A stretch of 64,000 nucleotides of DNA, taken from Eledone cirrhosa. Taxonomy: Eukaryota. The stretch covers positions 115,692,001 to 115,756,000 of the forward strand of contig OZ024740.1 in assembly GCA_964016885.1 (NCBI GenBank), in the 5' to 3' direction. A program made the position numbers and the translations under genes. This document shows positions 6,860 through 62,824 of this stretch, piece by piece. Position 1 is the first letter of the stretch; every line of letters begins with the position of its first letter. A model generated the notes under the pieces. It did not search any database and had not been told where the DNA came from. It worked only from the letters and a program-made list of their open reading frames with translations.

Positions 6860-9556
6860 TTTTTTTTTGTGTTGCACCATAGAACATGTGTGTTTACGTA
6901 TGTCTTTGTGTTTATATGTGGGTAGAGATGTGTGCTGATGTAGGTATGTATGTTGACGTGTGTATGTTGTGGGTTCGTCTTAGGGAGTGTTTAGACGGGG
7001 TCCGTATTTGTTAATAAAGTAAGATTCCTTGCTGATGCGCTGGGTGTGGGTGGCATTATCTTTAAATTTGTAGAGGGGGAAGATTCTGAAGTTGGGATGA
7101 TTTTGGGCGGCACAGGTATCAATGTGTTCACTCAGTGGTATTTTCCTGTATTCCCGTATTTTAATTTGGGATCTATGGGCAGTCATGCGTTGGCGGAGGC
7201 TGTTTTTGGTCTGGCCTATGTATTGTTCTCGACAACCTGAGCAAGTTAATACATATATTAGATTTTCCGATGCACATGTGAAATTGTGTTTTACTTTAAA
7301 ACGTTGTCCTTCTTTGAAATAGAATTCCGAACCCTCTATTAGGTTGATGCAAATGCCACAGTTGGGTCTATCGCATTTTTTTACTGTGGGTTTCGTTGTT
7401 GTGGTTGGCAGTACTTTGGCATGTGTTAGGATGTTTTTCATTGACTTAGATTGTCTTTTGCTCTTTATGATATCGTGTGTTCGTAGGATTTGGTTCATTC
7501 TATGGTCCTTTTTTAACACATGGATGTTCTGGAGGATGGTGTCAAAGGCCTCATTGTTGAGGGGGTTGTGTGTGGAGATGTATGGAAGAGCTTTTAGTTT
7601 CGGTTGATTTACTTTAGGGTGTCTAAGGTCCTGGGTACTGAGTTTTAGGGCACGTTGGATTCCATTGTCAATTAGTGATGCAGGGTAGTCCCTGCCTATG
7701 AGTGTGTCCTTTAGTTCTTGTAGCCGTAAGTAGCAGGTGTTTTTATTGGAGACTATAGTACAGATTCTCTTGGCTAAGTTGTAGGGAATATTAATTTTAA
7801 CGTGTCTAGGGTGGCAAGAGTTGAAAGGAAGATATTGCTTGGAGTCTGTGGGCTTGTAGTATATGTCTGTTTCTATTTTTTTGTTATGGATCTTAATGAG
7901 GATGTCGAGGAAGGGGAGTTGTTGATGGCTGTATTCCATCGTGAAGTTAATATTCGTGTTGAGCCCATTTATAAGAGTGTGAAATTCTTTAAGTTTTTCG
8001 ATGTTTTCGTGCCAAAGGATGAAGCAGTCATGTAGATATCGCTTCCAGTTCCTTTCTATGTGTAAGTGGAGAGTGTTTCCAAATTTGTTTAGGACTTTAG
8101 TGTAGAGGGTGATTTCCAGGTATCCCATGACTAGGTTGGCATAAGTGGGGGCTGTTTTCGTTCCCATAGCGGTCCCAGATTTCTGCCTGTAGGGTTTGTT
8201 ATTGAAAACGAAGTAATTGTTCTCCAAGATAAATTTGAGTCCCTCTATCACGAATTCTTTTTTGATGCGTTGTGTGAGTTCATTGTGGTAATTATCCAGC
8301 CAGAATTGGATAGCTTCTATTCCTAGGTTGTGGGGGATGTTGGAATATAGGTTGACTACATCGAACGTCATTAGTAGGGTTTGTTCAGAAAGTGGCATAT
8401 TAGGGAAGTGATTGAGCATATCTAGGTCGTCCCTTATATAGCTTTTGATGTGTTTGAGAAAGGGCTTGAGAAGGGTATCAATGAAGTTGCTAAGCTGGTG
8501 GGTTTCGCAAGCGGGGCCTGTTATTATACGTCTTAATTTGAGATCATTGGGTGAGGGGACACTGATGACTATGTCTGTGGCTTCCTTGCATGCCTTACTT
8601 ATTAATTCGCTTTTATGTACTTTAGGGATACCGTAGAAAAGGCTGGATTTACTTGTGAAGTCTGTGATGAAGCTGAATTCCTTGTTAGTGAGTCCTTCTT
8701 TGTATTGGTTGATTTGAGTTTTTAGGTTTCTCATAATTTTCTGTTGATTGTAGTGTTCAGCCTTTTCGTAGTATGTTTCGTTGTCCAAGGTGGAGAGCGC
8801 TAAGTTGATATAGAATTCTGTCTCCATTAGGACTACTGTACTCCCTTTATCAGCCTCTTTATTTGTAATGGTTCTGTCGGTTTTTAATCTATTTAATTCT
8901 TCCCATTCTTTCTTGTTGAGGTTTGGCTTGTGTTTTTGTCTGTGCAAGTGTTGGTAAGGGAAGTTTGTGATGTGTTCACAGAATTCGTCCAGGATTTTAT
9001 TTCTACCTTTTGATGGGGTGTAATTGCTTCTATTTCTGGCTAATGATTCATCCTCATTGTACTGGTCGAATAGTTGTTCACTGAGTCGTAACTTTCTACA
9101 GAAGTCTGTGATGTCTTCCTTCATTTCATAGTAGTTAGGACGTAGTGGGGTCGGTATGAATTTAAGACCTTTGGAGAGTAAGTTGATAAGGTTGGGTGTT
9201 GGTTCTGCACTAGTAAGATTGATAATTTTTATTACTATCGGTTTCTCCTCCCTGTCTTGTGTTATTTTGTTTGCCTGTATCTGTGTGCTGTGTCTAAAAA
9301 ATGGTTGGGATAGAGGGGTTATCTGCTGATGTTAAGTGGTCTCCTGTGTTTGTTATATTCCTTGTTGTTGTAAAATGTGGTTCGGGTTGGTGGTTGTAGA
9401 TTGAATGGGGTGTTCCTGTACTGCGAGTATGGGTGTGTGTTTCTATGTGCCATGTTGTATTGTGGTGTTATAGGTGGCCTACGTTGTTGGTTGTATCGTG
9501 TGGTGTGGGTTTGTTGTGTATTGTGGAAGCGAGAGTTGAGAAAATGGAAATTACCC
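6860..9556 (-). mobile_element. Penelope-like element A (Neptune-like: Cys-rich linker + CCHH GIY-YIG), 5'-truncated
   Basis: Contains the RT-EN ORF and the 3' end of an upstream ORF; bounded by (TA)n tracts. Confidence 0.9.
6980..9301 (-). CDS. PLE reverse transcriptase + GIY-YIG endonuclease; frame open upstream of the first Met (9124) to the TTTTTTA site; catalytic YLDD reads YLHD
   Basis: EADKG, FDVVNLYSNIP, QKSGTAMG, WKRYLHD, LPFLD, YYKPT, SCHP, CDRPNCGIC, NLIY..C..C..QYIGQT, upstream IINL...LLSKGLKFIPTP. Confidence 0.9.
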   Translation of the reverse strand, partial: FFRHSTQIQANKITQDREEKPIVIKIINLTSAEPTPNLINLLSKGLKFIPTPLRPNYYEMKEDITDFCRKLRLSEQLFDQYNEDESLARNRSNYTPSKGRNKILDEFCEHITNFPYQHLHRQKHKPNLNKKEWEELNRLKTDRTITNKEADKGSTVVLMETEFYINLALSTLDNETYYEKAEHYNQQKIMRNLKTQINQYKEGLTNKEFSFITDFTSKSSLFYGIPKVHKSELISKACKEATDIVISVPSPNDLKLRRIITGPACETHQLSNFIDTLLKPFLKHIKSYIRDDLDMLNHFPNMPLSEQTLLMTFDVVNLYSNIPHNLGIEAIQFWLDNYHNELTQRIKKEFVIEGLKFILENNYFVFNNKPYRQKSGTAMGTKTAPTYANLVMGYLEITLYTKVLNKFGNTLHLHIERNWKRYLHDCFILWHENIEKLKEFHTLINGLNTNINFTMEYSHQQLPFLDILIKIHNKKIETDIYYKPTDSKQYLPFNSCHPRHVKINIPYNLAKRICTIVSNKNTCYLRLQELKDTLIGRDYPASLIDNGIQRALKLSTQDLRHPKVNQPKLKALPYISTHNPLNNEAFDTILQNIHVLKKDHRMNQILRTHDIIKSKRQSKSMKNILTHAKVLPTTTTKPTVKKCDRPNCGICINLIEGSEFYFKEGQRFKVKHNFTCASENLIYVLTCSGCREQYIGQTKNSLRQRMTAHRSQIKIREYRKIPLSEHIDTCAAQNHPNFRIFPLYKFKDNATHTQRISKESYFINKYGPRLNTP

Positions 9557-10238: not shown

Positions 10239-12525
10239 TTAAGTTATTTTATAGTGAGAGAATTTAGCTTTTAGTTTGTGGTTGCAGTATAATGATCGTT
10301 CAATTCTATCGTTAAGTAGTTTGTTTTGGGATTTTAATATGTAAAAGAGTTCAAGGTTACATAACCTGCAGTATTTCAATCCACTCCGATATGCACTTGC
10401 GCTGGAAAGTATATCCCATTTTAAGGTGAACTGTTGGTTGCGTTCACGGAGTTGCCAGGTCTTGTTGGCGAGCGTGGTCACAAAACGGTGATTAGGATGT
10501 TTGATTGAGAATCGATGACGGTACCAGCGAGATTTAAACGAGGTGGTGGTAGATCCGATATAATACCATTTCTGGTCGTTCGATTCAACCGTGCATTGGT
10601 AAACAATGTTGGACTTTAGACATTCATTCTTCAATGGACATCTTTCAGGTAGCGGGTATACCATGGATAGGTTGTGATAGCAGTACAGGTGGATTGTGTA
10701 ATACCTGTCTCCCATTTAGTGGTTGGGAGGCAGATATTACGTTCTGCCCATCTGTTACTAAAATGTTTTGTTTTGTAGAGTTGTTTAATTGCCTTAAGTT
10801 AAGTTTTTTATGTATGCTTCAAGGTTTGGTGCCGTGGAGTATGATAGTCTAATAGTTTTAGAGTTCAGAATTTTGCTGTATTTATGGGAACTAGGGAAAT
10901 GTTTGTTGATTAACTTAAAGAATGAAAGAGATAGTTTTGTACTAATCGAGGCATTAAAAATAGGATTGTACCAGATATACTTTCTACAACGTGATTTATT
11001 TAGTGGTGATTTTCTATTATTAGTATGTCTGGTAGTACTGTGTGTGTGCGCTTGTATTTTAGTCCCCCGGTTACGCATTCCTTGATTTCGTGTAGAGCTA
11101 TGTGTGTTATGGAAATTCCTATCAATGTATTCTATTGTATCCCGGTGGTCGGCCTTCCTTAATGCATTATTGTAGTATTCAGCGTGTTCACTAAAAATAT
11201 CAGAGTTAGACGATAGGCGAGAGATTCTAAGAGAAACTGATTTGATCATGGAGAGTGGGTGGTTTGAGTTAAAGTTAATATACGTAAAGTTCTCATTCAC
11301 CTTGTGGAAGGGTCGTATCTGTCCGGTATTTAAATTAAGAGTTACGTCCAGAAAGTTTACTACTTTAAGATTGTATTCGTATGTTATTTTTAGACCCAGT
11401 TCACTAAAAGATTTTCTAATATTTTTCCGTAGCCTTTCAAGATTTTGGTTATTCAAGTTATTAACTAATAAGAGCCCGTCATCTCTGTATATCCACCCCC
11501 CCTGTAGATTACTAAATTTACTATGTAATATGTGGGCTATGTAAATTCCCACGAGATCCGTGACCTCCGCTGAGTCGTTGGAACCCATGGTAATGTCGAA
11601 ATTTGTGGGTCTGTCCTTACGTTCCCAGTAGCAGTTATCAAACTTAATAATTGTTTTTCTAGCCTCGAGAATAATATTAATTTCGTCCTCCGTTAGGTCG
11701 GAATTGACCCTAGCAAACGATAGGGCCTTACGTAAAGTGCTTGGTGAGATGGAAGAGTAGTATTCGTCTATGTCAAATTGTATAAACTTAGATTTATTCT
11801 TATTCTTAACGTTATTAAACCAGCGAATTGCTTCGCTAGTGTTGCCCCATAATTTAATTTCAATTTTCTTTTTCACTTGAGTTATTACTCTGTCAAGTAT
11901 ATGTTTGCTAATTTTTCCTATGTCTGATTTAGAAGGGCATATAAGTCTAATCTTAGGGTTAGAGTCAAAATTTACCTTATGGTCCTTCAGGTTGAAGGTG
12001 GGGGTAGCGGGTATAATCGGCTCGGTTCTATCGTCTATCTTGAGATTCTTCACCACTTTATATGCCTCGTTGTTAATATTTGCTAGCGTAGTTTCATTTG
12101 TTTTTCTATATTTTGTGTGTAGTTCGTTGCGTATGAAGTTATTATACGTATCGATATCCATGGTATACACGTTAGAGGTCTTGTCAGCTTTCACAACAAT
12201 TCCATTGGTATTTTTCAATTTTCGGAGTAGTGCTTTCATGTTGTTCTGCAGCTCATTATTTCTGTTTGTTGAACTTAATATTCATGGTCGTTTTCATTAA
12301 ATCTTGTTCAAAAGCATCGAGATGAGGGTTTGTGGGTGGGTTTTTACATGATTTAAAACCATATGATTCAGACGAGTGACGGGCGCGTCCTTTATCGAAA
12401 TGGAAAGCTTTCCATCGTACACGCCGAATGAAGTCGTTATTGCGTTGAATCATACTAAGAATATATTCCCTTTTGTTAGGTATAGGCATGTTTTTAAGTG
12501 ACATACCTATATGATGCCTTTCCAT
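10239..12525 (-). pseudogene. PLE B RT + C-terminal GIY-YIG, disrupted by a frameshift and a stop
   Basis: SLKNMPIP, VKADKTSN, FIQFDIDEYY, FDITMGSNDSAEV, IYRDDGL, VNFLDVTLNL, NIVYQC...YYIGST, CRLC. Confidence 0.9.
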
Positions 12526-20277: not shown

Positions 20278-22629
20278 TAATAACGAAGGAATGTAAAATT
20301 TTAGGGTAAGTGAGAAATACCAATCTTATTTAAACCACAAGGAATCTAGATCTATAACAAGAAATTAAATTAATTGATAGGTATACTTATAGGGATAAAT
20401 TTATATTACTTCATATGGATGTGATAAATAAGAATTAGATGTTATTAAAGAATGTTGTTAAAAACGAAGGAAAATAAAATTTTGGGATAAGGGTAATAGT
20501 TAGAAATACCAATCTTATATAAACTACAAGGAATCTAGATTCATAACAGGAAATTAAATTAATTTATATGTATACTTTTAGGTATTAATTTTAGGAAAAG
20601 AGAGCTGTAAGAGGGAAATAAAATTATGAAGTTCTCTGTAGTAAAGTACTAATTATAGGTTAACTAAATAAAAAAAATAATAATTATAATAATATGTAAA
20701 ATATAAGTGTAAGGTGTATATTAATTAGGTTTATAATATTTGAAAGTTCTTCTAATTCTATGATTACAAGATATAATTAATTCTTGTCGCTTATTTAATA
20801 GGATATCCTTAGATTTCATTATTTCAAAAAGTTCCTGGGAACATAATCTACACTCATATCTGTTATTTTGATAAGGGGTGGCCCTTTTGAGCACACTCCA
20901 GATCAGGTTGTAATCGATATTCTTTTTTCTATAATTATTAATTGTTTCGGGCAAGGATGTTGTATTAGCTAATGTGGCATTTTTAAAACTATGTTTGTGG
21001 ATATTAAATCTTACTTTAAATTGGTTAGACGTAGCTCCTATATATGAATAAGTGGAGTCCTTAGTGCTAATTTTACATTTATAGACTATGTTATTAATAA
21101 GACAATTTCCCTTAATGGGCAATTTCTTTTGTTTCTACAATTACAACCATTCGTGAATATTATATCGGGGGAGTTAGTCAAATTTGGTGTGGAATTTATT
21201 TGACTTGTTATATGTGAAGGAGATTGTGGTTTGTTGCGGTTTATTTTAGTATTATGGTTGGTTTGATGTGTTGGTGGTATATTCGTGGTTTTTTTACATT
21301 TATATGCGTTGTACGCACTTATATTTTGTTGTATATTTTTGGTAGTGGAATAGGAAAATTTGGTATTTATGGTTTGGCGGGAAGTTTTTCTCTAGGATAG
21401 TAAAACATTTTTTAGGGATATTATCTTTAATTTGTAGATTAAATGGAGCATTATACCAAGTAACCCGTCTATTACGGTTTCGATATTGTTTTTTATATTT
21501 ATACGATGTATCAGGATGTTTACTAAGAGAGTTACTATTAGTGAATTTATTATATATAGGTTTAGTTAGATTAACTGATTTAGGTGTTTTAGTCTGATTA
21601 TTAGGAATTTTGTTAGTAATGTTGTTAACATATATTGGAGTATTAGGATGAATGGTTTTTTGAAAGTCATTATATTTTATGTGAGAAGAGGTAGAGAAAT
21701 TAAGTTTTAGGTTGGTATTTTGGGGTGTAGTGTGGGTGGCATTTAGGTGTGGGTTTTTCATTTGGTGTTTGTTGGTAATATTGGGTTGTATGTTTGAAGT
21801 ATTATTGGTGCAAGGTATATAGACTAATTTGTTTTTGTGGCCACTTCTAGCTAAAGCTTCGTTATAAAAGGGCGTATTTTTATCGAATACATCCTGGTTA
21901 GATGAAAGGTTAGAGATTCTGAGTGAGATATTATATGCTAGGTTTTTAAGGATAGATCTAGGGTTATTGGATTGTGAGTGTATGTAATGTAAGTTTTGGT
22001 TAGCTTTATGGTAAGGTTTATGGTAGATACCCGTAGATAAGTCTAAAGTTATATCTAGGAAATTACCTATTTTACTGGTGTTTTCAAATGTAATAGTGAG
22101 ATTATAATAGTCTTTGAGGAAAGTTCTAATAAGTTTGGGTTTTTTTCGATTTCTGATAGGCTAAGATTAGTGGAAAGAAGAAGACACCTTTAAGGTCTGG
22201 AAAAGAAGAATTTATGTTAAATAGAAGAAAGAGGCCCACACGATCGGTAATTTGGGCAGAATCACTAGAGCCCATAGTAATATCGAAGAGATTACTATAT
22301 GTATTTCTGGTCCAGTATTCCTTCTGAAATTCCAGTAGTGTTTGTCTAGCGTGCGTGATAATATTAATGTCATCCATAGTTAAGTTTGATCTATTTTTGG
22401 CAAATATCAAGGTTTTCTTCAGGAGTATGGGTGATATAGAGGAATAAGCATCTATATCAAATTGTAGAAATGAAGCAGATGATTTATTTCTAATATTAGT
22501 AAACCAGTTAATTACTTGGGATGTGTTTTCCCAGAGTGGTATATTAACGTGTTTTCTTAATTGTGGGATGATTCTATCTAAAAAAGTTTATATTAAATCT
22601 TTGTTGTTTTTTTTTTCAATAAACAAATC

Positions 22630-25302: not shown

Positions 25303-25909
25303 CAATGAGGCCTATAATGAAAGCTATTCTAGCTCTTTACCATTCCCTTTTATTCCTGCGGAGAACCCAGTACCACACTACATTATCAAACGTTTATTTC
25401 TAAGGCTCGAGTGTGACCTAGGAGAAAAATTGGCTGCTATTTCTAACAAGCCGGACGACTACATCGAAGCTTACTCGTTGTTAAGCTCCAGGTCGGACCT
25501 GATCAAACAGACCTATAATCGAAGGTCTTCCAGGCGTGATCATCCCATTTTATTCCAATATGCGGTGAACTCAGGACCACATTATCTAATATGTTTTTCC
25601 CCTAAGACGGTATGGTGTGATCTGGAAAGAATTGGCTGCTGTTTCTAGCAGGTCTAGTGACCACGTCAGTGGCGCCTTCGTTGTCTTGTCATAGATGTTT
25701 TTATCTGTTGGTTGTGGCGGCTGTGATTGTCAATGAAGTCTGTCACTTCATGGCAGTTCTACTTTAATATGTTATTCCTTTATGAAATAACAGTTTAATT
25801 GTTTAGGGGTTGTTGTTTTTTGGTTGTTTTATAAAAGAAAAAAAAAGAATATATATATATATATATACAATATTAAATAAATGGAAAACTATATTTATAA
25901 AACCATATT

Positions 25910-25975
25910 TATTTCATTATATATATTTCGGGGATATCATATTAACAATATGCTATGCCTTCATCAGACAAAATA
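25910..25975 (-). ncRNA. type I hammerhead ribozyme
   Basis: Reverse complement of 26133-26198. Confidence 0.8.
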
Positions 25976-26132
25976 CAATATAAACAGTTTTATAGATAAA
26001 TATATTCGACATACCGTAATAAACATCAACTTCATTTGAAGAGGTTCACTCTAGCAGAGTGAACCTCTTCAAATGAAGTTGATGTTTATTACGGTATGTC
26101 GAATATATTTATCTATAAAACTGTTTATATTG

Positions 26133-26198
26133 TATTTTGTCTGATGAAGGCATAGCATATTGTTAATATGATATCCCCGAAATATATATAATGAAATA
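26133..26198 (+). ncRNA. type I hammerhead ribozyme
   Basis: tattttgt-CTGATGA-a-GG..ATA.CATATT gtt AATATG.TAT.CC-c-GAAA-TATATA-TA/atgaaata; 8 bp stem I with 2 GU pairs. Confidence 0.8.
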
Positions 26199-26351
26199 AA
26201 TATGGTTTTATAAATATAGTTTTCCATTTATTTAATATTGTAAATATACTCCAAGTATTTGTCGAGTGCTTTTATATCAGTTATAAATATTTACTAGTTG
26301 TAACCCAACAATTTTAAATATAACTTTACATGTATATATATATATATATAT

Positions 26352-27197
26352 ATTATGAAGAGAGAAGAAACATTTAGATATAATTAGTAATAAAATGTAT
26401 CATACCTAAACTGTTCCTAAATTCCTCGACTACGTAGTTTCGTGGCATAAACAAAAACAATATATCAAAGATATAGAGTCCTTGTGAGGTCTGCCGACTT
26501 ATCAAGAGGATACCTCATTTTACTAGTCTCAAGAACGCGTCTACACGACGTGAGAAAGAATCCCAAAAGGCGGAGGGGGAGACAGTCACGCGATATAACG
26601 GTCGAGAAACAGAGCTAAGCCTCTTATAACCACGAAGAAAATACCACGGAGGCGGAGGGGGTATTCATATCGAGGCCGTAGAAGAGGTAGTGAAGAAGGC
26701 GAGAAGTATGAGTAATGGAAGCTTTCCAGTTGTCCCCACACTTCAAAGATTGCTCGACCAGAGGGAGTTATTAATATATTTAGAAACACACAGATACATG
26801 CGGACACACACATATATACATGAATGCATCCGCACCCAACTGTGAGTTAAGGGTGCCAACTTCACCGATGTTGCTCAATGAATGACTGGGACAGACCATT
26901 CTCGCAAGGACTCTATATCTTTGATATATTGTTTTTGTTTATGCCACGAAACTACGTAGTCGAGGAATTTAGGAACAGTTTAGGTATGATACATTTTATT
27001 ACTAATTATATCTAAATGTTTCTTCTCTCTTCATAATGTATTTTTAACTCTGATACTGGTTCAGTCTGGTTCAAACTGAATTGGTCTGTCCCAGTCATTC
27101 ATTGAGCAACATCGGTGAAGTTGGCACCCTTAACTCACAGTTGGGTGCGGATGCATTCATGTATATATGTGTGTGTCCGCATGTATCTGTGTGTTTC

Positions 27198-27207
<10 letters not shown>
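26352..27207. mobile_element. non-coding HHR element with interlocked inverted repeats (A-x-B-A'-y-B')
   Basis: A 26352-26488 / A' 26901-27037; B 26774-26898 / B' 27082-27207; (TA)n on both sides. Confidence 0.85.
26423..26510 (-). ncRNA. type I hammerhead ribozyme, U3-A8 covariant core
   Basis: Minus strand: tcctc-UUGAUAA-GUcGGCA...UGCCAC-GAAA-CUACGUAG-UC/gagga. Confidence 0.8.
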
Positions 27208-27236
<29 letters not shown>

Positions 27237-27428
27237 ACAGTGAGAAAGAGACGATTATTAGGAAGAAAAATATATTTTTTTCCTTTTTTGTTTCTCTCTC
27301 TCTTTTTTCTGGGTTAGAAAATGATTAAAACGAAATGTTTTACTTTGTGTGAAGTGTTAAGGTATTAGTTGATTTATTTATTATTTAACAATGGCATTTA
27401 TTTATCTATTTATATATTTAATAATTGT

Positions 27429-27470
27429 CTATTACCGGTTTCAGCATTTGTATGCATTATCAAATGATAG
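27429..27470 (-). ncRNA. minimal hammerhead, U3-A8 variant, weak stem I
   Basis: Minus strand: ctatcat-UUGAUAA-u-GCAU acaa AUGC-u-GAAA-CCGG-UA/atag. Confidence 0.65.
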
Positions 27471-27881
27471 TGAAATGTATTAGTGTGGTGTCGCACATGT
27501 TAAACAGAGGTGCAGAAAGAATAATGTTATTTACAAACAAGGTTTATGAAGTGAAAAGAAAAAAGAAAAATGGAAAAAAAATGTGCATAATGTAGAGCAT
27601 AAAAAAATCAATGTGGAAGAAAAAATATTGTTATTTACAGGCATAGTTATTGAAGTTAAGCAGATCAAAATGTGTTAATATAGCAAGAGTGCTTAGTTGA
27701 TCCATGATTCCATGATGGAGGCAAATGGTGGACTGAGGTTTAATATGATTTCCCTTTTTAGAGAGTTAATATGCATGGGGAAGCAATTCTTGCTGGGTGA
27801 TATTTAATTTATTTAAGAAAAAGGATTAGGTAGGGTGTGAGGGAGGTAACTCTTGTAAATGTTTGATTGTTTGTTGCAGTT

Positions 27882-30172
27882 TTAGATTGGTCCGATTTTT
27901 AGAGCATTAAGTAGAGGTTGGAATTTGTTAATGAAATATGTTTCCTTATTGGTACGTTGGATGAAAGTAGCGTTGTCTATGAATTTGTAAATGGGGAAAA
28001 TTTTAAAGTTTGTAAGTTGGTTGTGAGCACAATTGGCGATATGTTCACTAAATGCAATCTTTCTGTATTCCTGTATTTTAATTTGTGATTTATGGACGGT
28101 CATACGTTGACGGAGGCTGTTTTTTTGTCTGTCCTATGTAGTGCTCTTGACAACCTGAGCAGATCAAAATATAGATTAGGTTTTCAGATGCACATGTAAA
28201 GTAGTGTTTAACTGTGAAACGCTGTCCTTGTTTAAAATGGAATGTTGAACCGTCTATTAGATTTATGCATATGCACAGTTGGGCCTTTCGCATTTTGTTA
28301 CTGTAGGGTTCATTGTGAGGGTTTGTTGGATTTTGGCTTGTGTGAGGATGTTTTTTATGGATTTAGGTTGTCTTTTGCTCTTTATGATGTTGTGTGTTTC
28401 GAGGATTTTGTTCATTCTTGGGTCTCTTTTTAGTAAAGGAATGTTCTGGAGGATGGTGTCGAATGCCTCATTGTTGAGGGGGTTGTGTGTGGAAATGTAT
28501 GGTAGAGTTTTTTGTTGCGGTTCATTCCTGGGTTTGGGGTGTCTGAGTTCCTGGATGTCTAGTTTTAGGGCACGTTGGAATCCATTGGTGATTAGGGATG
28601 GTGGGTAGTTTCTGCTGATAAGTGTAAATACACATGTGTATCATGTGTATTTATCTGAAACTATTGTACAGATCCTTCTGGATAGGTTATAAGGAATTGC
28701 CATTTTGGTGTGTCTAGGGTGGCACGAGTTGAATGGAAGGTATTGTTTGGAGTCTGTGGGTTTGTAGTATATGTCTGTTTCTATTTTGTTGCTTGTTTTC
28801 TTGATGAGGATATCGAGGAAAGGGAGTTGTTCATGGCTGTAATCCATTGTGAATTGTAAGTTTGTGTTGAGTCCATTCAGAAGGGTTTTAAACTCAAACA
28901 GTCTATCTATACTTTCATGCCAGAGGATGAAGCAGTCGTCCAGATATCTCTTCCAGTTCTTTTCTATGTGTTGGTAGAAGTGGTTGCCGTATTTGTCTAG
29001 AACTTTACGGTAGAGAGTGGTTTCCAAATATCCCATGACAAGGTTGGCGTATGAGGGGGCCACTTTCGTGCCCATGGCAGTCCCAGATTTCTGTCTGTAG
29101 TATTTGGCATTGAATTCGAAGAAATTGTTTTCCAAGATGAATTTGAGTCCCTCCAAAACAAATTCTTTAGGGATGCGCTGTGGGAGTTCACTGGGGAAAT
29201 TTTCAATCCAGAATTGTATTGCCTCTATACCTAGGTTGTGTGGGATATTGGAATATAAATTGAGGACATCAAAGGTTACTAGTAGGGTATGTTCATTATT
29301 AAGTGTTGTTGGGAGGAGGTTGAGCATGTCAAGGTCGTCCCTTATGAAGCTTTTTATGTGTTTTAGGAAAGGTTTAAGCAGAATATCTAGGAAGTTGCTT
29401 AGGCCGTGGGATTCACATGTGGTGCCTGCTATTATGGATCTTAATTTAAGGTCACAGGAGGGGCTATATTGATGTAAACGTCTGTCTTGCTTGCAGGCCC
29501 TACCTATTACTTCGCTTTTGTGTGTCTTGGGGATACCGTAGAAGAGGCTGGTTCTGCTTTTGAAATTGGTGATGTAGTTGTATTCCTTGTCTGTAAGGCC
29601 TTCTTTGTAAAAGGCTGTTAGGGATTTTAGGTTTCTCATTATTTTCGGTTGTGTGTAGTGTTGGGCCTTTTCATAATATGTTTGGTTTTCTAGAGTTGAG
29701 AGTACTAGAGTTGTGTAATAATCTGTCTCCATAAGGACTACTGCACTCCCTTTATCTGCCTCTTTGATTGTTAGGGTTTTGTCGTTTTTTAGACTGTTAA
29801 GACCATTCCATTCTTTTTTGCTTAGGTTTGGTTTTTGTTTATGTCTGTGTAGGTGGTGGTATGGGTAATTAGTAATGTGTTCGCAGAATTGATCGAGGAA
29901 TTTATTCTTGCCTTTTGGTTGCTTCTATTTCTGGCTGAGTCATCCCCATTGTATTTGTCGTATAGTTGTTCGCTGAGTCTTAGTTTTCTACAGAATTCTG
30001 CAATATCTTCCTTCATTTCGGGGTAGTTTGGTTGTTGGGGAGTTGGTGTAAATTTTAGACCTTTGGAGAGTATGTTGATTTGGTCTGTTGTTAATTCTTT
30101 AGATGCATTTTGTGTCTCCTGTGTGTTTTGTGTTATCTTATAATCCTGTGTTTGTGTGCTGTGTCTAAAAAA
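27882..30172 (-). pseudogene. PLE D RT + GIY-YIG (frameshifted)
   Basis: Fragments 29822-30016, 28641-29732 (WKRYLDD), 28090-28293 (NLIY..YIGQT), 27882-28103; collinear with PLE A. Confidence 0.9.
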
Positions 30173-31726
30173 TGATTACGGAAGTTGTGATGGCTGTTGA
30201 AGTTTGGATGTCTCTTATAGTTGTGCTGGCCCCTGCTGTTGTTGTAAGATGGTGTGTAGCTGTGGTGGTTGTTGAGTTTAGGTTGTATTATGTGATTGCA
30301 TTGAGCCCTGCTGATGTTGTTGTAGGGTGTGTAGATTTGATGGACGTGGTTATAGGGTGTGAAGTTGTGGTGGTTGTTGAAGTTGGGTTGTATCGTATGG
30401 TTGTGTTGAGCACTGCTGTTGTTGTAGGGTGTGTAGACTTGGTGGTAGTTGTAGTAGGGTTGTCTTGTGTGGTCATATTGAGTCCTGTTGTTGCTGTTTT
30501 ATGGTGTGTAGCTATGGTGGTTGTAGTGGTTAGGGTGTCTCGTGTGGTTGTATTGTCCCCTGCTGGTGTTGTTGTAGTAGGATGTGGTTAGTGGAGGAGG
30601 GTAGATTATGGTTTCCTTATAGCTGGTGTGTGGTTGTGAGGCCCTATGTGACATGTGTGGTAGTTGTGTATTTTGGGTTCTATGTTGGAAGTAATGATGG
30701 TTGTGGGTTTGTTGTGTGGGGATGTTAGGGGGGTTGTAAGTGTGGGGGATTTTATGGTTTCTCCTGGTGGGAGAGAAGTTGTAGTGTCTATCTTGTAGCT
30801 GATGTTTCTCTATTACTATATTTGTTGCTTGGGAGTCCGTGTGGTAGTTGTGTGGAGGATGTAGGAGGTAGGGGCGAGGTGATGCCTTCTTTTGTTGGTA
30901 TGTGGGGAGGTATTGTTTTTTTGTTGTTGGTTGGTTGTTGTGTGGTGTTTGGGTGTTGATTGAGTTTTCTTGTTATTATTGTTTTAATGAAGAGGTTCTT
31001 GGATGTGTGTTCTTTTTGGAAAAGTGTTTCATAGTTAGAGAACCAGGTTTCGTTTATTTCCCAGCGTTGAAGGGATTTTAATTCTTCCTTATTACAGACC
31101 TCTAACCATAATTTTGAAATATTTTCTCGGGTGGTGTCTTTGGTTATATTGATAATTGCTAGATTAATCTCATCGTCGATTGATTTTATCCTATCTTCAT
31201 TTGCTTGGGCTCTCAATTTAAGGAGTTCAATTTCGTTTTTTATGTTATCAAGTGCCATTCTTTCCCTGAGGTGTCTTTGTGTCTCTAGTTCGTTTGGGAT
31301 ATATTTAATTTGTAGTTTGCGGGGGATGATTAATGGGGATGAGTTAATCCATTTTTCATAGATCTCCGCTTTGTTACTGTTTTGTATCATCTTCCAAAAG
31401 GAGAATTTCCTGTTATTAAGAGATGTGTACCATTGTGGTATTAATTTATTTTTTATTTGGTAAGTTGTAAGTGCATTAGTGTCATGCGTATTTTCATTCG
31501 TTTGAATAGGGTTTGTGTTGTTATTCAGGTGTGTTTTTATTGTTTCACATAAGTTATTGATATTGTCGTTGATTTCATAGGATGTGTATTTGGAGATTAT
31601 TTCTTCACTTGTAGAGTTAAGTTTGTTGGTGAGTATTGACAAATTAGAGTTCATTTTTTGTAGTTCTTGGAGTATCTCTTGATTGATGCTAATGAGAGTG
31701 GAGTCTGTTTTTGTTCTAGTAGGCAT
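30133..31726 (-). pseudogene. PLE D upstream ORF1: helical/coiled-coil-like N-half and H/N/Y/P-rich repetitive C-half
   Basis: ORF 30788-31786 (likely start MPTRTK) continues after an apparent frameshift near 30920 into a frame open, apart from one TAA at 30499-30501, to HFLDTAHKHRIIR*. Confidence 0.65.
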
Positions 31727-31795
31727 TTTCTGTATCTCGTGTGGGGGTGAATAATAATAATAATATAATGTGGAGAGGAAGCACACGAGTTAGGA

Positions 31796-31838
<43 letters not shown>

Positions 31839-32782
31839 GAAAACAGGGAGAAAGACACGATTATTAGGAAGAAAAATATTTTTTTTTCTTTTTTTGTTTT
31901 TCTCTCTCTCTATATATATATATAGGGTTTTTCTGAAGTCTCGGCAATATTTGGGGTTCAAATTGTTAAACTTCTACTAATATAGTTTGTTTGTTTTTTT
32001 AGAAAAATAAAAGTATTCTTAAAATAAAAGTTTAATAGTTTTAGTTTTATTTTTATAAGACTCGATAATATGAGGTTCATATCGTAACTCCAACTTTAAT
32101 ATGTTATTCTTAACCTAGTTATATATATATATTCGGGTACAACTTCTGATTTAGCCTAAGAAAATATCTATATGCGTGTGTAATTTATACAAGCATATAT
32201 TTATTTTTTTTATTTTCAATTGAGTTCTTAAACACGTTGGATTGATAATGTTTTCAAAAAAACTAATTAACCCGCGTGTATATTATTTTTTTTCCTCATT
32301 TCGTGGATCGTGTGTTGTCTCCCCTTCCCGCTTCGTGTCGCTATGATACTTCCTCAGTCAAAAACTGCTGGAATTTCAAATTTGGCGATCATTCGAGGCG
32401 AGAGAGAGCAACTTTACGGACATGATTTTTGACAGTGGTAAGAAATTGTTTTCTTATATCAATGTTTAACGGGCTTCCACTGATGATTTATAAGTGCCCA
32501 CCTAAATATATTCTTACATGAATATATATTAGGCTTCTACATAAACTGGAAAGATTCTCCCAAACTTGTAGAAAACTTATAATGAAACAATTGTTTGGAA
32601 AGAGAGATATACTTTAACTTTAATTATATCTCATAAAATAATACAACTGGTTTTTCCACATTATACATATTGTTAGCACCCCAAACACTTAAATTGGGTT
32701 TATATTTTAATATAACCTAATGTTTGTTGAGTGAGATGGTTACCAGTCAGAGTTTAGCTTTAAACTATCTCTGTTATTGTAT

Positions 32783-36411: not shown

Positions 36412-37841
36412 TGGGAAATGGTACTATGTGTATATAAAAAAAACGAAGAAAACAAAAAACATTTAATACAGAACAACACACTTGATTCTGATATGGCTGT
36501 ATTGACGGATCTAAACATATTTCTCTGTAATACTTAACATCAAACTCTTCATATGTGCAAAACGAACATCCAAATTATTTACACACAAACAAACCAATTG
36601 TATGAATGTTTTTTCTTTTTTTTTCTCCTTTTCTTCTTTTCTTCTTTTCTCTGGCTAAAAATTTTGAGGATGACAAGATGGCATTTTCTTCTCCATCAAT
36701 AGTGTTTTTGGCGCGGAATAGTCCGCCATGTTGGTTTTAGTTTTAAATTCCCTGCCTCTACCTTGTTAATGACATCGCTCGGTTAGCCGCTCCTTTGCAT
36801 ATTGTCTCGGATGAATTCTTTTTCCTGTCCAGTTGTTTGACAGAGAAAAACAAGCGATTTTGTTTTCCTTTTCCCTTGTGTTGGAGACATTTTTCCAAAC
36901 GGAGACGATTTTTTTTTTGCAGATAATCTACGGTATAACAATGGCATCTCATTCAGCCATTATGGCGATGCAGAAGTCCATTCAGGAACTCACCCTGGAG
37001 CTCCAGAAGATGAAGGTCTGGTGTGGTGCCCGTTCGCGCCCGCGCAGCCGCGGGAGATCTCAATCTTTTAGACGCTGTCCCAAATCACCAGCTTCATCTT
37101 TATGCTGGTACCATGAGCGATTTGCCGAGAGCGCGAACCACTGCGTGCAACCTTGCTCGTTTCATAAGGCGGGAAACGCCAAAGAGGTCCGCTGATGGGG
37201 GCAGTTGACCTCAACATAAAGCCACCAAATCGCCATTTCTTCATTAAGGACCTTAGGTCGGGAAGAGGTTTCCTCGTGGATACAGGAGCCTCCTGTAGTA
37301 TTTGGCCGGTCCATTGCCTGAAAGGTAGAGTAATCCGTTACTCTGCAGGACGTTAATCACTCGTCTATAAAGACGTACGGGCAAATCTCGCTTCCACTCA
37401 AATTCCTAAATCTTCGTAGGGATTTTAAGTGGATTTTTACGGTTGCCGATTTGCCATACCCTATCTTAGGAGCGGACTTCCTCCACAACTTCTCTTTGAC
37501 TGTGGACGTCCGTGGCCAACGCCTGGTGGATGACATCACCGGTTTCTCAATTCGTGGCCGGAAAGCCAATGCTCCAACAGTCAGCCCCATATTCTTCATC
37601 GCTGCCGCTGGAGACGCCTACCATTCGTTGTTAGGTTCTTTCCCGGAGCTCACCGATAGAAATTTTTGAGTCAGTGAGCCAACACACTCAACTGAACATT
37701 TCATTTCCACCACCGGTTCTCCAGTGTTTTCGCGTCAACGCCGCTTACCGGCGGACAAATTAAAGGCAGCACGGTCCGAGTTCGACCATATGCTGCAGCA
37801 TTATTCGCCCATCTACGAGTCCTTGGGCTTCACCGTTACAC

Positions 37842-40140
37842 ATGGTGCCCAAGACTTTCGGCGACTGGAGACCCACTGGGGATTATAGGAGGTTAAATGC
37901 TATGACCATCCCGGATAGGTATCCCATTCCCCATCTCCAGGATTTCGCATCTTCATTGCAGGGGTGTAAGATTTTCTCAAAACTAGATTTAGTGCGAGCC
38001 TACCACCAAATTCCGGTCAGGAAGGAGAATATTCCGAAAACGGCGATTACAACTCCTTTCGGATCCTTCGAATTTTTTACCATGCCTTTCGGACTCAGGA
38101 ACGCCGCTAGCACTTTTCAGCGGTTCATAGATGAAGTCACTCGTGGTCTAGACTTCGTTTATGCTTACATAGACGATATTCTCGTCGCTAGTTCCTCTCT
38201 GGAAGAGCATATGCGCCACATGCATTTCTTATTTCGGCGACTTGAGGATTACCGCGTTCGTCTGAATCCCGCAAAGTGTGTTTTAGGTTCCACTTCGCAA
38301 AATTCTTTAGGCCACCTCATCGACGCCGAAGGTATTAGGCCGCTCCCTCAGCGAGTTCAAGCCATACAGGATTTACCTCCGTCTACTACACTTCACCAGT
38401 TGCGTCACTTCTTAGGCCTAATCAATTTCTATAGGCGTTTCGTTCCTCATTGTGGTAATTTGCTATCTTCCCTTACTGACATTTTGAAAAATCGTCGTAA
38501 GAAGAATGAGGATATTTCCTTGACACAAGGACAGCTTCAAGACTTCCACACTGCCAAGACAGCACTCGCTAGTTCATCTTTACTAGCCCACCCAGTACCA
38601 GAGACCAAGCTTTCGCTTTGTGTTGATGCATCTGATACCGCTGTGGGAGCAGTTTTACAGCAGTACAACGCTGGAAACCAACAACCTTTGGCATTTTTCT
38701 CAAGGAAGCTGAAACCAGCAGAAACGCGTTATAGTACCTTTGGGCGGGAATTATTAGCCATATATCTGTCGGTGAAACATTTCTCTCATATTCTTGAGGG
38801 GAGAAATTTTACTGTTTTAACCGACCACAAACCTCTGACCTTCGCTTTGAGGGCTAAAGCCGACAGATATTCGCCCAGAGAGACAAGGCACCTGGATTAC
38901 GTTTCGCAATTTACAAATGATATCCAGCACATTGCTGGTTCGCATAACATAGCTGCAGACGCATTGTCACGTTTGCCAATCAGCTCCATCTCGTCATCCA
39001 AGGAGATCGACTTAGGTCGTTTAGCTGCAGACCAACCTGCACTCCAATCGTTGGATACTCTTTCTGTCGAATTTGCGACTTGCATCTTCAAATATCTGCC
39101 TTTGTCGACCACCGACAGGCAGATTCTATGTAATGTATCTATGGATACACCACGACCATTTGTTCCTGAGACTCACCGTCGAATTGTATTCCTTGCTTTG
39201 CACAGCATTTCTCACCTAGGAATTTCTGCCACAGTAAAGCTTATAACGGCTAGATTTTTTTGGCCCAATATGAGGCGAGAAATTACTGTCTGGTGCCGTT
39301 CCTGCACACAGTGTCAGAGATCTAAAATCCACAGACACATCCGGACTCCACTTGGTACTTTCAGAACTCCAGATGCTCGGTTTCAACACATCCACATTGA
39401 TATCGTTGGACCTTGGCCATTCAGCAGTGGATATTCGTATCTCTTGACCTGTATCGATCGTTTTTCGCGATGGCCTGAAGCCATCCCCTTAAAAGATATA
39501 ACTGCTGAGACTGTAGCGCGTGCCCTGGTGTCAGGGTGGATTACCCGCTTTGGGGTACCAACTACAGTCACCACAGACAGTGGTAGACAATTTGAGTCTC
39601 ATCTTTTCTCTGAGCTCACAAAGATCATTGGCGCTCAACGGATTCGGACCACAACCTATCATCCTGCTTCAAACGGAATGGTGGAATGATTCCACCGCCA
39701 ATTAAAGGCCGCTCTTCGCGCCTATCCAGACTCTCAACGTTGGAGCGAGTACCTTCCTATTGTGTTGTTAGGAATTCCGTCGTCAATAAAGGAGGAGCTT
39801 GGGTTCTCCCCGGCCGAATTACTGTATGGTGCTCCTCTAGCGTTGCCTGGGCAAATGCTTGTCCCTGTTGATCTTGCTTTCCAAGACCGTTTCCTACGTA
39901 TCTCGTTTGCGCTCCTATTTTCAGGACTTACCGCCAATGAATACTAGGAAACAAACTATTAAAGCTGCAGTCCCGAGGGATATTGCCTCGTGTACACATG
40001 TATTCGTCAGAAACGATGCGGTTACTCCACCCCTCACACAACCGTACTCTGGACCCTACACTGTGTTAGCACGTACTGACAAACATTTCACTGTAGATAT
40101 TAAGGGGTCCAGAGAGACAATTTCGGTGGATAGACTAAAA
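37842..40140 (+). pseudogene. Gypsy pol: RT (YIDD), RNase H, integrase; premature stop at 39687-39689 and a later frameshift
   Basis: [42 protein letters not shown]...[19 protein letters not shown]. Confidence 0.95.
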
Positions 40141-44972: not shown

Positions 44973-45372
44973 AAGTAATTAAGTCAAATATTTAAGATTT
45001 GGCTTCGTTTATTAAAGATGTACTGCTATATATATTTCGGTGACAGCTATCATTGGCTGTGACCTCTTCAGGCAGTTCGAATTGGTGTGGTAGAGACAGG
45101 TACACATGTTGTTAAAGTGTTTTACTCAGTCACTTCTCCGATATGTCCAGCTCCTGGTTGGGTTGTTATTTCTCTGAGGAACTGGAATCAATGATGGCTG
45201 TCACCGAAATATATATAGCAGTACATCTTTCATAAACGAAGCCAAATCTTAAATATTTGACTTAATTACTTTATTTTACATTACTCCGGAGTAACCAAAC
45301 CAGCCTGCGTACTTCGTCGAGTGCTCCAATCTGCATACTGAGGTGTCGGTAAACAACCAACATATACTCAAA
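44966..45372. mobile_element. (TA)n-flanked fold-back HHR element
   Basis: 44966-45055 inverted at 45189-45278, then a ~95 nt extension containing tactcc...gtcgagtgct. Confidence 0.85.
45022..45076 (-). ncRNA. canonical type I hammerhead ribozyme
   Basis: Minus strand: actgc-CUGAAGA-GGUcACAGC caaugaua GCUGUcACC-GAAA-UAUAUA-UA/gcagt. Confidence 0.9.
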
Positions 45373-49509: not shown

Positions 49510-49590
49510 GCCATACTCTTCGCTCGTTAGTCTAACATTTACAGTTGAGACGTTATTCTGATACTGTTTTTGAAACCATAACATTTAATC

Positions 49591-50106
49591 ATGTCCCGCG
49601 ATTTAATGATTCCGCTGAGCACTATGCCTTGGGGATTCTTTGACAGACAAAGAAGCCTGTTTTCGGAAATGCACAAAAATATGGAAGAAGAATTTAAAAA
49701 CTTTGATCTCGAATTAGATAGAATTCGCAAAGATTTGTTTAAACTGGAACCGTTTAGCATGTCCGATTTCGGAAAAAACATGCTCCAGGTTGAAAACCCT
49801 ATTGTCATGGACAGCGAAGGTAAGAAAAAACTGGCATTACGTTTTGACGTGAGTAACTTTAAACCAGATGAAATCTCTGTCAAGACAACCGATAACAATC
49901 TATATATACAAGCCAAACACGAAGAGAAAACACCACAGAAACAAGTTTACAGGGAGTTCAGCCGGCAATACACTCTTCCAAAAACTGTGGATCCAATGAA
50001 ATTGTCATCAATCCTCACCAAAGACGGAGTCCTTCACATCGAGGCCCCTGCGCCAGCTGCAATTGAAGCTCCATCCGAAAGACTTATCCCCATTGAGAAA
50101 TGTTAA
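49591..50106 (+). CDS. small heat-shock protein (HSP20/alpha-crystallin family), intronless, 171 aa
   Basis: LRFDVSNFKPDEISVK...AKHEEK...REFSRQYTLP..VDP..LSSILTKDGVLHIEAP, C-terminal IPI (IXI) motif. Confidence 0.95.
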   Translation: MSRDLMIPLSTMPWGFFDRQRSLFSEMHKNMEEEFKNFDLELDRIRKDLFKLEPFSMSDFGKNMLQVENPIVMDSEGKKKLALRFDVSNFKPDEISVKTTDNNLYIQAKHEEKTPQKQVYREFSRQYTLPKTVDPMKLSSILTKDGVLHIEAPAPAAIEAPSERLIPIEKC

Positions 50107-61145: not shown

Positions 61146-61639
61146 ATTTGTACCAGTTTTATTAACAAAAAATTAAAATTTCACCTTTCCTTAAAAAAAA
61201 AATTTCTACAGTTTAGAAATATAGTAAAATTTCCACCATTGTATCTCCCCCTTTCAAATATATTTTATATCTTATACTGTTTCTCTATTATTTCAGAATA
61301 TCCGATGACATTGGCATAACAGAATTTGTTTTACTTGAGATCCCTTGTCAATATTTATTTTTTTAAAGACTAAAAGAAGATTTTATATATATATATAAAT
61401 TTATGGTAGAATTACTTGGAAATGTTTCCTCTGTACTGAAACTAATATCAACATTTCTCTACTTCAGTGTCTGGAATGTGTACAAAATAATTTTACATTC
61501 TAATTAAACCTGACAGAGGAACTTTTAGCCTCTTGAAATATTGTCTGTTGATGGAAATATAGCAGAAGGAATATTTGTTAGGAATAAAATATAAACAAGA
61601 AGACAAATATTTGTAATTTATGGTGAGAGAGGACAAATA

Positions 61640-62824
61640 ATGGAAAATGAATTATGTGAGAATCAGGTTAAATGTAAAATAGAGCCTAAAAGTATTGATT
61701 TTCCAATAGATATAAAGCAAGAAACAGGAAAAACTTCATACCAGTGTGATATCTGTGGTAAATCATTCTCTCATAAAAGTAGCCTAGTTACTCACAAACG
61801 TATTCATACAGGAGAGACACCATATCATTGTGATGTCTGTAGTAAAACTTTTTCTCAAAAAAGTAGTCTAATCACACACACGCTTCTTCATACAGGAGAG
61901 AAACCATATCACTGTGATGTCTGTGGCAAATCATTCTCTCAAAAATGTAGTCTAATTACTCACACACTCCATCATACAGGAGAGAAACCATATCAGTGTA
62001 ATGTCTGTAAGAAGTCATTCTATCAAAAAGGTAACCTAACTACTCATATACGTATTCATACAGGTGAGAAACCATATCACTGTGATATCTGTAAGAAATC
62101 ATTTTCTCAAAAATGTGAGTTAACTGCTCACAGACGTACTCATACAGGAGAGAAACCATATCACTGTGATGTCTGTGGTGAATCATTCTCTCAGGGAAGT
62201 AACCTAACCAAACACAAAGGTATTCATTCAGGAGTGACACCATATCATTGCGATATCTGTGGTAAATCATTCATTGTAAACAGTGTCCTAACTAGACACA
62301 AGCGTACTCATTCAGGGGAAGCACAATATCGCTGTGATATCTGTGGTAAATCTTTCATAGAAAATAGTGATCTAACTAGACACATGCGTACTCATACAGG
62401 AGAAAAACCATATCACTGTGATATTTGTGGTAAATTGTTTTCTCATAAAGCTAACTTAACTAAACATACATACATTCATACAGGAGAAAGACCATATCAC
62501 TGTGATATTTGTGGTAAATCTTTCTCTGGAAATGGTGACCTAACTAGACACAAGCGTATTCATTCAGGAGAAAAACCATACCATTGTGATATCTGTGGTA
62601 AATCTTTCACTGAAAAAGGTGACCTAACTAAACACACACGTATTCATACAGGAGTAAAACCATATCTCTGTGATATCTGTGGTAAATCATTCACTGAAAA
62701 TAGTGTCCTGACTAGACACAAACGTACTCATACAGGAGAAAAACAATATCACTGTGATATCTGTAATGAATCATTCTCACAGTTAAGTAGCTTAACTAAA
62801 CATGTACGTATTCATACAGGATAG
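61640..62824 (+). CDS. tandem C2H2 zinc-finger protein, 13 fingers, single coding exon
   Basis: 13 x Y.C..C.K.F.....L..H...H with TGEKP-type linkers; candidate splice acceptor tttcag at 61291-61296. Confidence 0.93.

What the first reader, a model, noticed from the sequence alone, without database searches (positions are those of the whole stretch)
26352..27207. Interlocked inversions reveal a circularly permuted ~590 nt non-coding HHR monomer
The minus strand reads B-middle-HHR-A and the plus strand reads (half HHR)-A-linker-B. Joining them closes a circle, HHR-A-linker-B-middle-HHR, of roughly 547+44 nt with no RT recognised. This is sequence-level evidence for a tandem or circular template, i.e. 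a retrozyme-like RNA. Its HHR has a compensatory C3-G8 to U3-A8 change, which suggests selection on catalysis.
Basis: partly seen in the sequence, partly recalled or inferred. Interest (0 to 1): 0.85.

Follow-up and report, generated by a model that had tools for sequence, protein, structure and literature searches.

The report
Two-armed 591-base hammerhead retrozyme insertion
This is one of thousands of genomic copies of a 591-base non-coding repeat carrying a predicted self-cutting RNA motif, and its back-to-back arms suggest that a Penelope-type jumping-gene enzyme copies one likely circular RNA from both ends of a DNA cut, a known kind of element whose copying route had mostly only been proposed.

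Summary
The monomer is 591 nt, forms real head-to-tail arrays, and its hammerhead 24-mer has 6,967 exact matches in the genome. It is non-coding and fits the metazoan non-LTR retrozyme class. The window copy is not two inversions but two head-to-head arms (551 and 306 nt) anchored in (TA)n. Arms end at two fixed sites 165 nt apart, and two-armed insertions use one of each (65 independent pairs against 1). Arms read through the cleavage site without loss (281 of 283), stop at a constant rate, and carry locus-private alleles in every unit (30 fixed, 5 partial). This points to Penelope-type priming from both DNA ends on one monomer read repeatedly, likely a circle; an uncut linear multimer remains possible. 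The U3-A8 core is real and family-wide, but already described in Schistosoma Penelope-like elements and also present in the neighbouring Penelope-like element. Cleavage, expression, circles and the helper enzyme are untested; no RNA run was available. The scan has already noted the same two-arm pattern in other families (310, 422, 469 nt) of this genome. New member of a known kind, with good mechanistic footprints.

The parts
26348..26898 (-). Arm 1 (551 nt): monomer nt 121-591 then 1-80, numbering from the hammerhead cleavage site; its 3' end is at fixed site 1 and runs into (TA)n
26423..26510 (-). Complete type I hammerhead: stem I 26510-26506 with 26427-26423, core UUGAUAA 26505-26499 (U3-A8), long stem II with internal loop, GAAA 26441-26438, palindromic stem III, predicted cleavage after GUC between 26428 and 26427
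   Evidence: sequence; scan; pairs 97% kept in 18 family rows but no compensatory change; activity untested
26511..26773 (-).
26774..26898 (-). Segment B, copy in arm 1 (monomer nt 121-245)
26899..26900 (.). Head-to-head junction of the two arms, 2 nt that fit neither arm; most such junctions in the family have 0-5 nt overlap or gap
26901..27206 (+). Arm 2 (306 nt): monomer nt 531-591 then 1-245 (3' half of the hammerhead, A, linker, B); its 3' end is at fixed site 2 and runs into (TA)n
26901..26966 (+). 3' half of the hammerhead only (lacks the 5' strand of stem I and the UUGAUAA box)
   Evidence: sequence
26984..27064 (+). Intron-like stretch (monomer nt 23-103: GT donor, branch-like motif, pyrimidine tract, AG) that contains site 1; splicing not shown, retained in 186 of 186 genomic units that span it
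   Evidence: sequence read by eye
26333..26352 (.). Left (TA)n target tract
27203..27232 (.). Right (TA)n target tract, shared with the 3' end of the neighbouring PLE
27234..31906 (-). Neighbour, not part of the element: a near full-length Penelope-like element in a partial tandem (RT; GIY-YIG region broken into several frames) with its own U3-A8 hammerhead-like motif at about 27470-27428; candidate helper class, no sequence likeness to the monomer

Best explanation
This is a young insertion of an abundant 591-nt non-coding repeat with a predicted hammerhead (a metazoan non-LTR retrozyme), likely copied in trans by a Penelope-like RT/GIY-YIG enzyme that primes from both ends of a cut in (TA)n on one monomer RNA, most likely a circle. 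Steps: (1) arrays are transcribed, cut at each GUC and the monomer is ligated (inferred from the coral, mussel and axolotl retrozymes; untested here); (2) the PLE enzyme cuts (TA)n (target shown; enzyme inferred); (3) each DNA end starts cDNA at one of two fixed sites, nt ~80 and ~245, one end at each (shown in the copies; the 165 nt between them is the counterpart of the PLE 'tail'); (4) each RT runs back round the monomer, through the cleavage site, and stops at a constant chance of about 1 in 680 nt (shown as a length pattern; the circle is inferred); (5) the two cDNA ends are joined head to head with 0-5 nt of overlap, or a single arm is joined to the other (TA)n end (shown). The window copy is such a two-armed insertion with one intact hammerhead; it cannot release a monomer by itself.
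For: Exact 591-nt arrays; 6,967 exact 24-mer hits, control 0. In 49 unselected loci, 73 of 78 arms end at site 1 (37) or site 2 (36) and 73 of 77 have (TA)n within 30 nt. Of 74 head-to-head pairs in 129 loci, 66 are site 1 + site 2 (65 independent), 1 is 1+1, none 2+2, 7 have an off-site end (P 1.8e-18 against even odds). Older sister subfamilies (589 nt, ~76% alike) keep both sites: 19 mixed, 3 same-site, 7 unresolved of 29 pairs. In 202 arms there is no pile-up of 5' ends at the cleavage site (3 seen, 1.7 expected; 281 of 283 pass) and the junction is exact in 227 of 229 matches. Alleles private to one locus are fixed in all its units in 30 cases (21 loci), partial in 5; L074 carries 6 rare alleles in all 5-8 units covering each site, in both arms. 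Monomer fold z -6.6, sister -3.7. Frangieh 2024 (PMC11167929) showed in vitro that a PLE protein cuts and extends both strands and starts at two internal sites that define the tail.
Against: No RNA evidence of any kind: no RNA run, cleavage or circle (see Tried and rejected). The one-of-each rule does not itself separate a circle from a linear RNA, since autonomous PLEs also often have the tail at one end only (PMC8557442) and the neighbouring PLE family shows it at L236. In vitro, the lizard PLE uses uncut RNA and does not need its hammerhead (PMC11167929). Some rare alleles are shared by only part of the units (5 private; L138, L139, L187, L057), and L176 shows a 3-unit DNA duplication, so arrays also grow at the DNA level. 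The hammerhead conformer is predicted 8 kcal/mol above the circle's best fold and shows no compensatory changes. No autonomous PLE with a homologous terminal repeat was found.
Confidence: 0.68

Rival explanations
1. Same element and same PLE helper, but the template is an uncut linear multimeric transcript of a genomic array. The two start sites lie in one folded domain bound by the enzyme dimer, and the hammerhead is weak or dispensable.
For: No 5' ends pile up at the cleavage site, which is what uncut RNA gives too; uncut RNA is the main substrate of the lizard PLE in vitro (PMC11167929); 8 of 9 Xenopus retrozyme dimers did not cleave in vitro (10.64898/2026.07.22.740005); 5 private alleles are partial; long arrays exist as possible parents (L175, L176).
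Against: Private alleles fixed in every unit of both arms in many different loci need a one-unit bottleneck each time (30 against 5); arm lengths fall off evenly with no cap and no carry-over of a parent's flank; most genomic arms are shorter than 1.2 units and could not template the long daughters; the core stays far less variable than the rest.
Confidence: 0.22
2. The pieces are the terminal repeat (pLTR) and inverted truncated copy of a longer autonomous Penelope-like element, for example the one next door.
For: The layout (partial tandem, inverted 5' copy, tail at one end, hammerhead, intron-like stretch) is that of PLEs (PMC8557442, PMC3846280), and a PLE abuts the right end.
Against: Full 591-nt units follow each other with no ORF; single-arm 5' flanks are unrelated, mostly (TA)n (42 of 59); the neighbour has different termini and hammerhead and shares only the (TA)n tract; no hammerhead of this loop type with a short stem II outside the family (7 hits, all deletion variants of the monomer by their matched sequence).
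Confidence: 0.06
3. A DNA-level minisatellite whose local inversions arose by recombination or fold-back repair; the hammerhead is a relic.
For: L176 shows DNA-level duplication of units; fold-back palindromes occur in this window (25860-26248).
Against: Thousands of dispersed short copies with fixed 3' ends, random 5' ends, (TA)n targets and a strict one-of-each rule are retrotransposition marks; inherited rare alleles lean A>G on the hammerhead strand.
Confidence: 0.04

Closest known systems
Metazoan non-LTR retrozymes (coral, mussel, axolotl: Cervera and de la Pena 2020, PMC7229834, parts 2-4 of 6 read; vertebrate survey: Li, Clavereau and Pollet 2026, bioRxiv 10.64898/2026.07.22.740005, parts 1-3 of 5 read)
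   Same: Non-coding tandem units, one type I hammerhead per unit, GC below 50%, no LTR, thousands of copies, strongly folded monomer, PLEs in the same genome.
   Different: 591 nt is above the 150-450 nt of the 2020 paper but inside the 51-972 bp of the 2026 survey. U3-A8 core with a 57-nt stem II. The parts read describe no two fixed start sites, no head-to-head two-arm rule and no (TA)n targeting. Circles and cleavage were shown there and are untested here.
Endonuclease-positive Penelope-like elements and their pLTR 'tail' (Frangieh 2024, PMC11167929, main text and part of methods read; Craig 2021, PMC8557442, passages; Gladyshev and Arkhipova 2013, PMC3846280, passages)
   Same: Two internal start sites, tail often at one end only, inverted 5'-truncated copy head to head, AT-rich or microsatellite target, hammerhead upstream of the start sites, intron-like stretch retained.
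   Different: No ORF; the tail is 165 nt rather than 30-40; both arms can exceed one unit and overlap in template; the start sites share short AU-rich likeness with the (TA)n primer, whereas the lizard element starts without homology.
U3-A8 minimal hammerheads of Schistosoma mansoni PLEs (Cervera and de la Pena 2014, PMC4209133, parts 1-2 of 4 read)
   Same: U3-A8 in place of C3-G8, short stem I, palindromic stem III region predicted to favour dimers, G10.1-C11.1 pair.
   Different: Here the motif sits in tandem non-coding monomers, has a much longer stem II with an internal loop that could pair with the strand 5' of stem I, and is very uniform among copies.
L1 twin priming
   Same: Both DNA ends prime on the RNA and give a head-to-head inversion joined by short overlap.
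   Different: In L1 the second start is variable and the two parts do not overlap (recalled). Here both starts are fixed and in 32 of 66 pairs both arms run past the other's start.

Membership tests
Metazoan non-LTR retrozyme | Tandem units of a few hundred bases, each with a type I hammerhead | tested here: met
   591-nt period, complete motif in each unit; the window copy itself has one and a half
Metazoan non-LTR retrozyme | No protein coded; no LTR organisation | tested here: met
   longest ATG frame 75 codons; no PLE protein likeness; arms have fixed 3' and random 5' ends; PBS and PPT were not searched for
Metazoan non-LTR retrozyme | Many dispersed genomic copies | tested here: met
   6,967 exact 24-mer hits; the first 100 fall in 49 loci over 54 Mb
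Metazoan non-LTR retrozyme | Hammerhead self-cleaves | not testable with these tools
   core and stems conserved but no covariation; needs an assay
Metazoan non-LTR retrozyme | Expressed as monomeric linear and circular RNA | tested here: inconclusive
   no RNA holder listed; indirect genomic support only; highly folded monomer
Non-autonomous PLE derivative | PLE-type insertion structure (two start sites or tail, inverted 5' copy, partial tandem, AT-rich target) | tested here: met
Non-autonomous PLE derivative | Sequence homology to the pLTR of an autonomous PLE in the same genome | tested here: inconclusive
   none found with the window's PLEs, 30 copies of the neighbour family or a loop-3 pattern; most PLE families of the genome were not examined
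Autonomous Penelope-like element | RT and GIY-YIG ORF between the terminal repeats | tested here: not met

The most novel reading that the evidence does not exclude
Each two-armed insertion is the record of two reverse transcriptases of a Penelope-type dimer, one at each fixed start site, running round the same covalently closed 591-nt RNA circle from the two ends of one DNA break, with the circle pool shaped by A-to-I editing. That would be direct genomic evidence for the circular template proposed for PLEs and retrozymes in 2014 and 2020, and would explain the PLE tail and 5' inversion as one event.
Probability: 0.5. Interest if true: 0.72.

Novelty: new member of a known kind. Interest (0 to 1): 0.48.

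Why it matters
How Penelope-like elements make their tandem and inverted insertions, and whether retrozyme circles are the templates, are open questions in the papers read (PMC4209133, PMC7229834, PMC8557442). A short, young, non-coding family with thousands of copies gives statistics that long PLEs do not: two mapped start sites, a near-strict one-of-each rule, read-through of the cleavage site, and alleles fixed across both arms. It supplies a defined 591-nt substrate with predicted start sites for an in vitro PLE assay (circle against multimer). The class itself is known, and this scan has noted the same pattern in other families of the genome, so the value is as a further, independent test case.

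Tried and rejected
Rfam scan of the window: 0 matches at gathering scores. RNA evidence: no RNA holder listed among 6 runs. Four of the 6 were laid, all contigs of unrecorded kind: two hold the monomer as one closed 620-621-nt contig, which tandem DNA would also give, none shows a splice joint, and none covers the host small heat-shock gene, so they say nothing on expression. In vivo cleavage read from 5' ends: an apparent pile-up at nt 1 vanished after exact extension (3 seen, 1.7 expected); rejected. Covariation: searches used misregistered structure strings and are discarded for the affected helices; the corrected count shows 97% pairing and no change on both sides, so there is no covariation support, also not for the possible pseudoknot. 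A-to-I editing in the same event: the A>G excess among fixed rare alleles (24 against 10 T>C, P 2.6e-4; 17 against 9 by distinct site) disappears for locus-private alleles (4 against 6), the 5'-neighbour bias is not significant (P 0.10), and the sites are not enriched in predicted pairs (8 of 17); kept only as a hint. The idea that both start sites are single-stranded: site 2 is, site 1 is not, in the predicted fold; rejected. Helper search: no likeness between the monomer and the window's PLE termini, the neighbour family or a short-stem-II pattern. Splicing: 0 of 186 units lack the intron-like stretch; no genome-wide search for a spliced form was made. Literature: searches for octopus + hammerhead ribozyme + Penelope, cephalopod + retrozyme, twin priming + Penelope, and one search listed no paper describing this family or the two-arm rule; the library lacks most subscription papers, and the supplements of PMC7229834 and of the 2026 preprint, which may list mollusc families, were not seen.

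Full report
What is there. The window comes from a 3.0-Gb animal genome, probably an octopod; that label is my recall of such genomes plus earlier scan notes and was not tested. The region 26348-27206 lies between two (TA)n tracts. Rfam does not detect it, and a 126-nt piece does not fold into it alone.

The monomer is real. A search with the 'middle' segment gave 592 candidates, of which 40 were scored; 41 of the 43 listed matches are full length and 100% identical, many exactly 591 nt apart. Numbered from the cleavage site, the window holds a minus arm of nt 121-591 + 1-80 and a plus arm of nt 531-591 + 1-245, head to head with 2 nt between them. The hammerhead 24-mer has 6,967 exact matches, control 0. 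The monomer codes for nothing evident (longest ATG frame 75 codons; no hit with 4 PLE proteins) and folds far better than shuffles (z -6.6).

Samples. Set A is all 49 loci behind the first 100 listed of the 6,967 hits. Set B is 80 stretches covering 82 of the 100 listed of 609 hits for a site-1 end followed by a long TA run; 9 rows were already held and 9 were not fetched. Both sets are from contig C1. Six further loci were picked by hand and are left out of the pair counts.

Two fixed ends, one of each. In set A, 37 of 78 arms end at nt ~80 (site 1), 36 at ~245 (site 2) and 5 elsewhere; 73 of 77 run into (TA)n. Among 74 head-to-head pairs in the 129 loci, 66 join a site-1 arm to a site-2 arm (one locus is duplicated, so 65 independent), 1 is site 1 + site 1 (L215), none is 2 + 2, and 7 have one off-site end. 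In set A alone it is 24 of 24 pairs with two canonical ends; in set B, 42 of 43. Single arms in set A use the sites equally (12 and 12). Junctions mostly overlap or gap by 0-5 nt, the two arm lengths are uncorrelated, and in 32 of 66 pairs both arms run past the other's start. Older sister subfamilies (589 nt, about 76% alike) keep the core, the loop-3 palindrome and both sites: 19 mixed, 3 same-site and 7 unresolved pairs in 43 loci.

Template. Over 202 arms (7 kinds of hit below 88% identity or at a stretch edge were dropped by rule), 5' ends are spread roughly evenly round the monomer at about 1 stop per 680 nt; 281 of 283 arms that reach the cleavage site pass it, and 227 of 229 junctions caught by the pattern are exact. 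So the template was continuous there: a ligated circle or an uncut multimer, not a cut monomer. Rare alleles (in at most 3 loci) are fixed in all units of a locus 72 times, in one unit 192 times and partial 21 times; 10 of the partial ones are a 3-unit duplication in L176 and 4 are two separate insertions in L215. With those two set aside, locus-private alleles are fixed 30 times in 21 loci and partial 5 times. Across arms, 255 of 362 variant comparisons are shared, against 432 of 5,567 between loci. Repeated one-unit bottlenecks are what reading round a monomer circle gives. Gene conversion or very uniform parent arrays could mimic part of this, and the partial cases show that other routes exist. 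Fixed rare alleles lean A>G on the hammerhead strand (24 against 10 T>C, P 2.6e-4; single-unit alleles 13 against 29), but not among private alleles (4 against 6); RNA editing is a hint only.

The ribozyme. U3 is kept in 124 of 124 loci and A8 in 123 of 124; the core and stems vary six times less than the rest (the 3' half is partly fixed by the way set A was picked). In 18 rows across subfamilies the stems are 97% paired with no change on both sides. A 6-bp pairing between the strand 5' of stem I and the internal loop of stem II is possible in 95% of cells and could free stem I from a competing hairpin; this is speculation. In the circle the active fold is predicted 8 kcal/mol above the best fold. 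U3-A8 is described in Schistosoma PLE hammerheads (PMC4209133), and here it also occurs in the neighbouring PLE family and in a further repeat, so it looks like a lineage trait and not a change made in this family.

The helper. The neighbour at 27234-31906 is a Penelope-like element (RT match just under the Pfam cut-off; a related ORF at 6980-9331 has RT and GIY-YIG). Its family ends in (TA)n, shows a second end some 60-70 nt further on in 3 of 30 loci, and at L236 has one arm of each. It shares no sequence with the monomer, and the retrozyme simply sits in its TA tract. It marks the kind of enzyme, not the proven partner.

Against what is known. The element meets the sequence criteria of metazoan non-LTR retrozymes (PMC7229834; 10.64898/2026.07.22.740005); cleavage and circles are untested. 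Its ends follow PLE rules: two internal starts defining a tail, both strands extended, a dimer predicted (PMC11167929), tail often at one end and an inverted 5' copy (PMC8557442, PMC3846280). Circles as templates were proposed in PMC4209133 and PMC7229834. My searches listed no paper on this family or on the one-of-each rule; of these I read the five papers named and one preprint to the extent stated under Closest known systems, the rest as listings only, and no supplements. Earlier scan notes, read after my analysis, report the same two-arm pattern for 310-, 422- and 469-nt families of this genome; a look-up by sequence found no note on this family. They are not independent evidence.

Verdict. 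Observation confirmed, interpretation supported with two corrections. New member of a known kind; interest 0.48. Most novel reading still open: two reverse transcriptases on one RNA circle, probability 0.5, interest 0.72 if true.

Noticed in passing
window 25860-26248: Near-perfect palindrome (193-nt arms, 3-nt loop) whose arms each carry a C3-G8 hammerhead-like motif (26141-26182 +, 25967-25926 -): a second, unrelated two-armed ribozyme repeat beside the finding.
   Followed up: no
window 45035-45209: Head-to-head pair of hammerhead-like motifs (45071-45027 - passes the relaxed scan; 45174-45209 +), probably a third small inverted repeat family.
   Followed up: no
window 27234-31906 (-): Penelope-like element with a partial tandem, a (TA)n tract inside its intron-like 5' repeat, a U3-A8 hammerhead-like motif and two ends about 60-70 nt apart; 2,435 candidates for its 3' end.
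   Followed up: partly
window 6980-9331 (-), 10239-12281 (-), 21300-22587 (-): Further Penelope-like ORFs: a 783-aa RT + GIY-YIG frame and two fragments of another clade.
   Followed up: partly
L220, L224, L243: Another repeat with a U3-A8 minimal hammerhead (UUGAAAA core, palindromic CCGG loop), present on both strands of each locus.
   Followed up: no
L175:543-5034 and L176:1-5026: Long arrays of the 591-nt monomer (7.6 and more than 8.5 units); L176 shows alleles repeating every 3 units in its first 6 units, a DNA-level duplication.
   Followed up: partly
L246-L252: Copies with the stem II extension shortened; the same short form appears on contigs C2 and C28 and in both arms, so shortened variants may themselves have been copied.
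   Followed up: no
window 37764-39689 (+), 49582-50106 (+), 61595-62824 (+): A gypsy-type pol frame, an intronless small heat-shock-like gene with a TATA box near 49503, and a C2H2 zinc-finger frame; names from the look of the translations, not searched.
   Followed up: no
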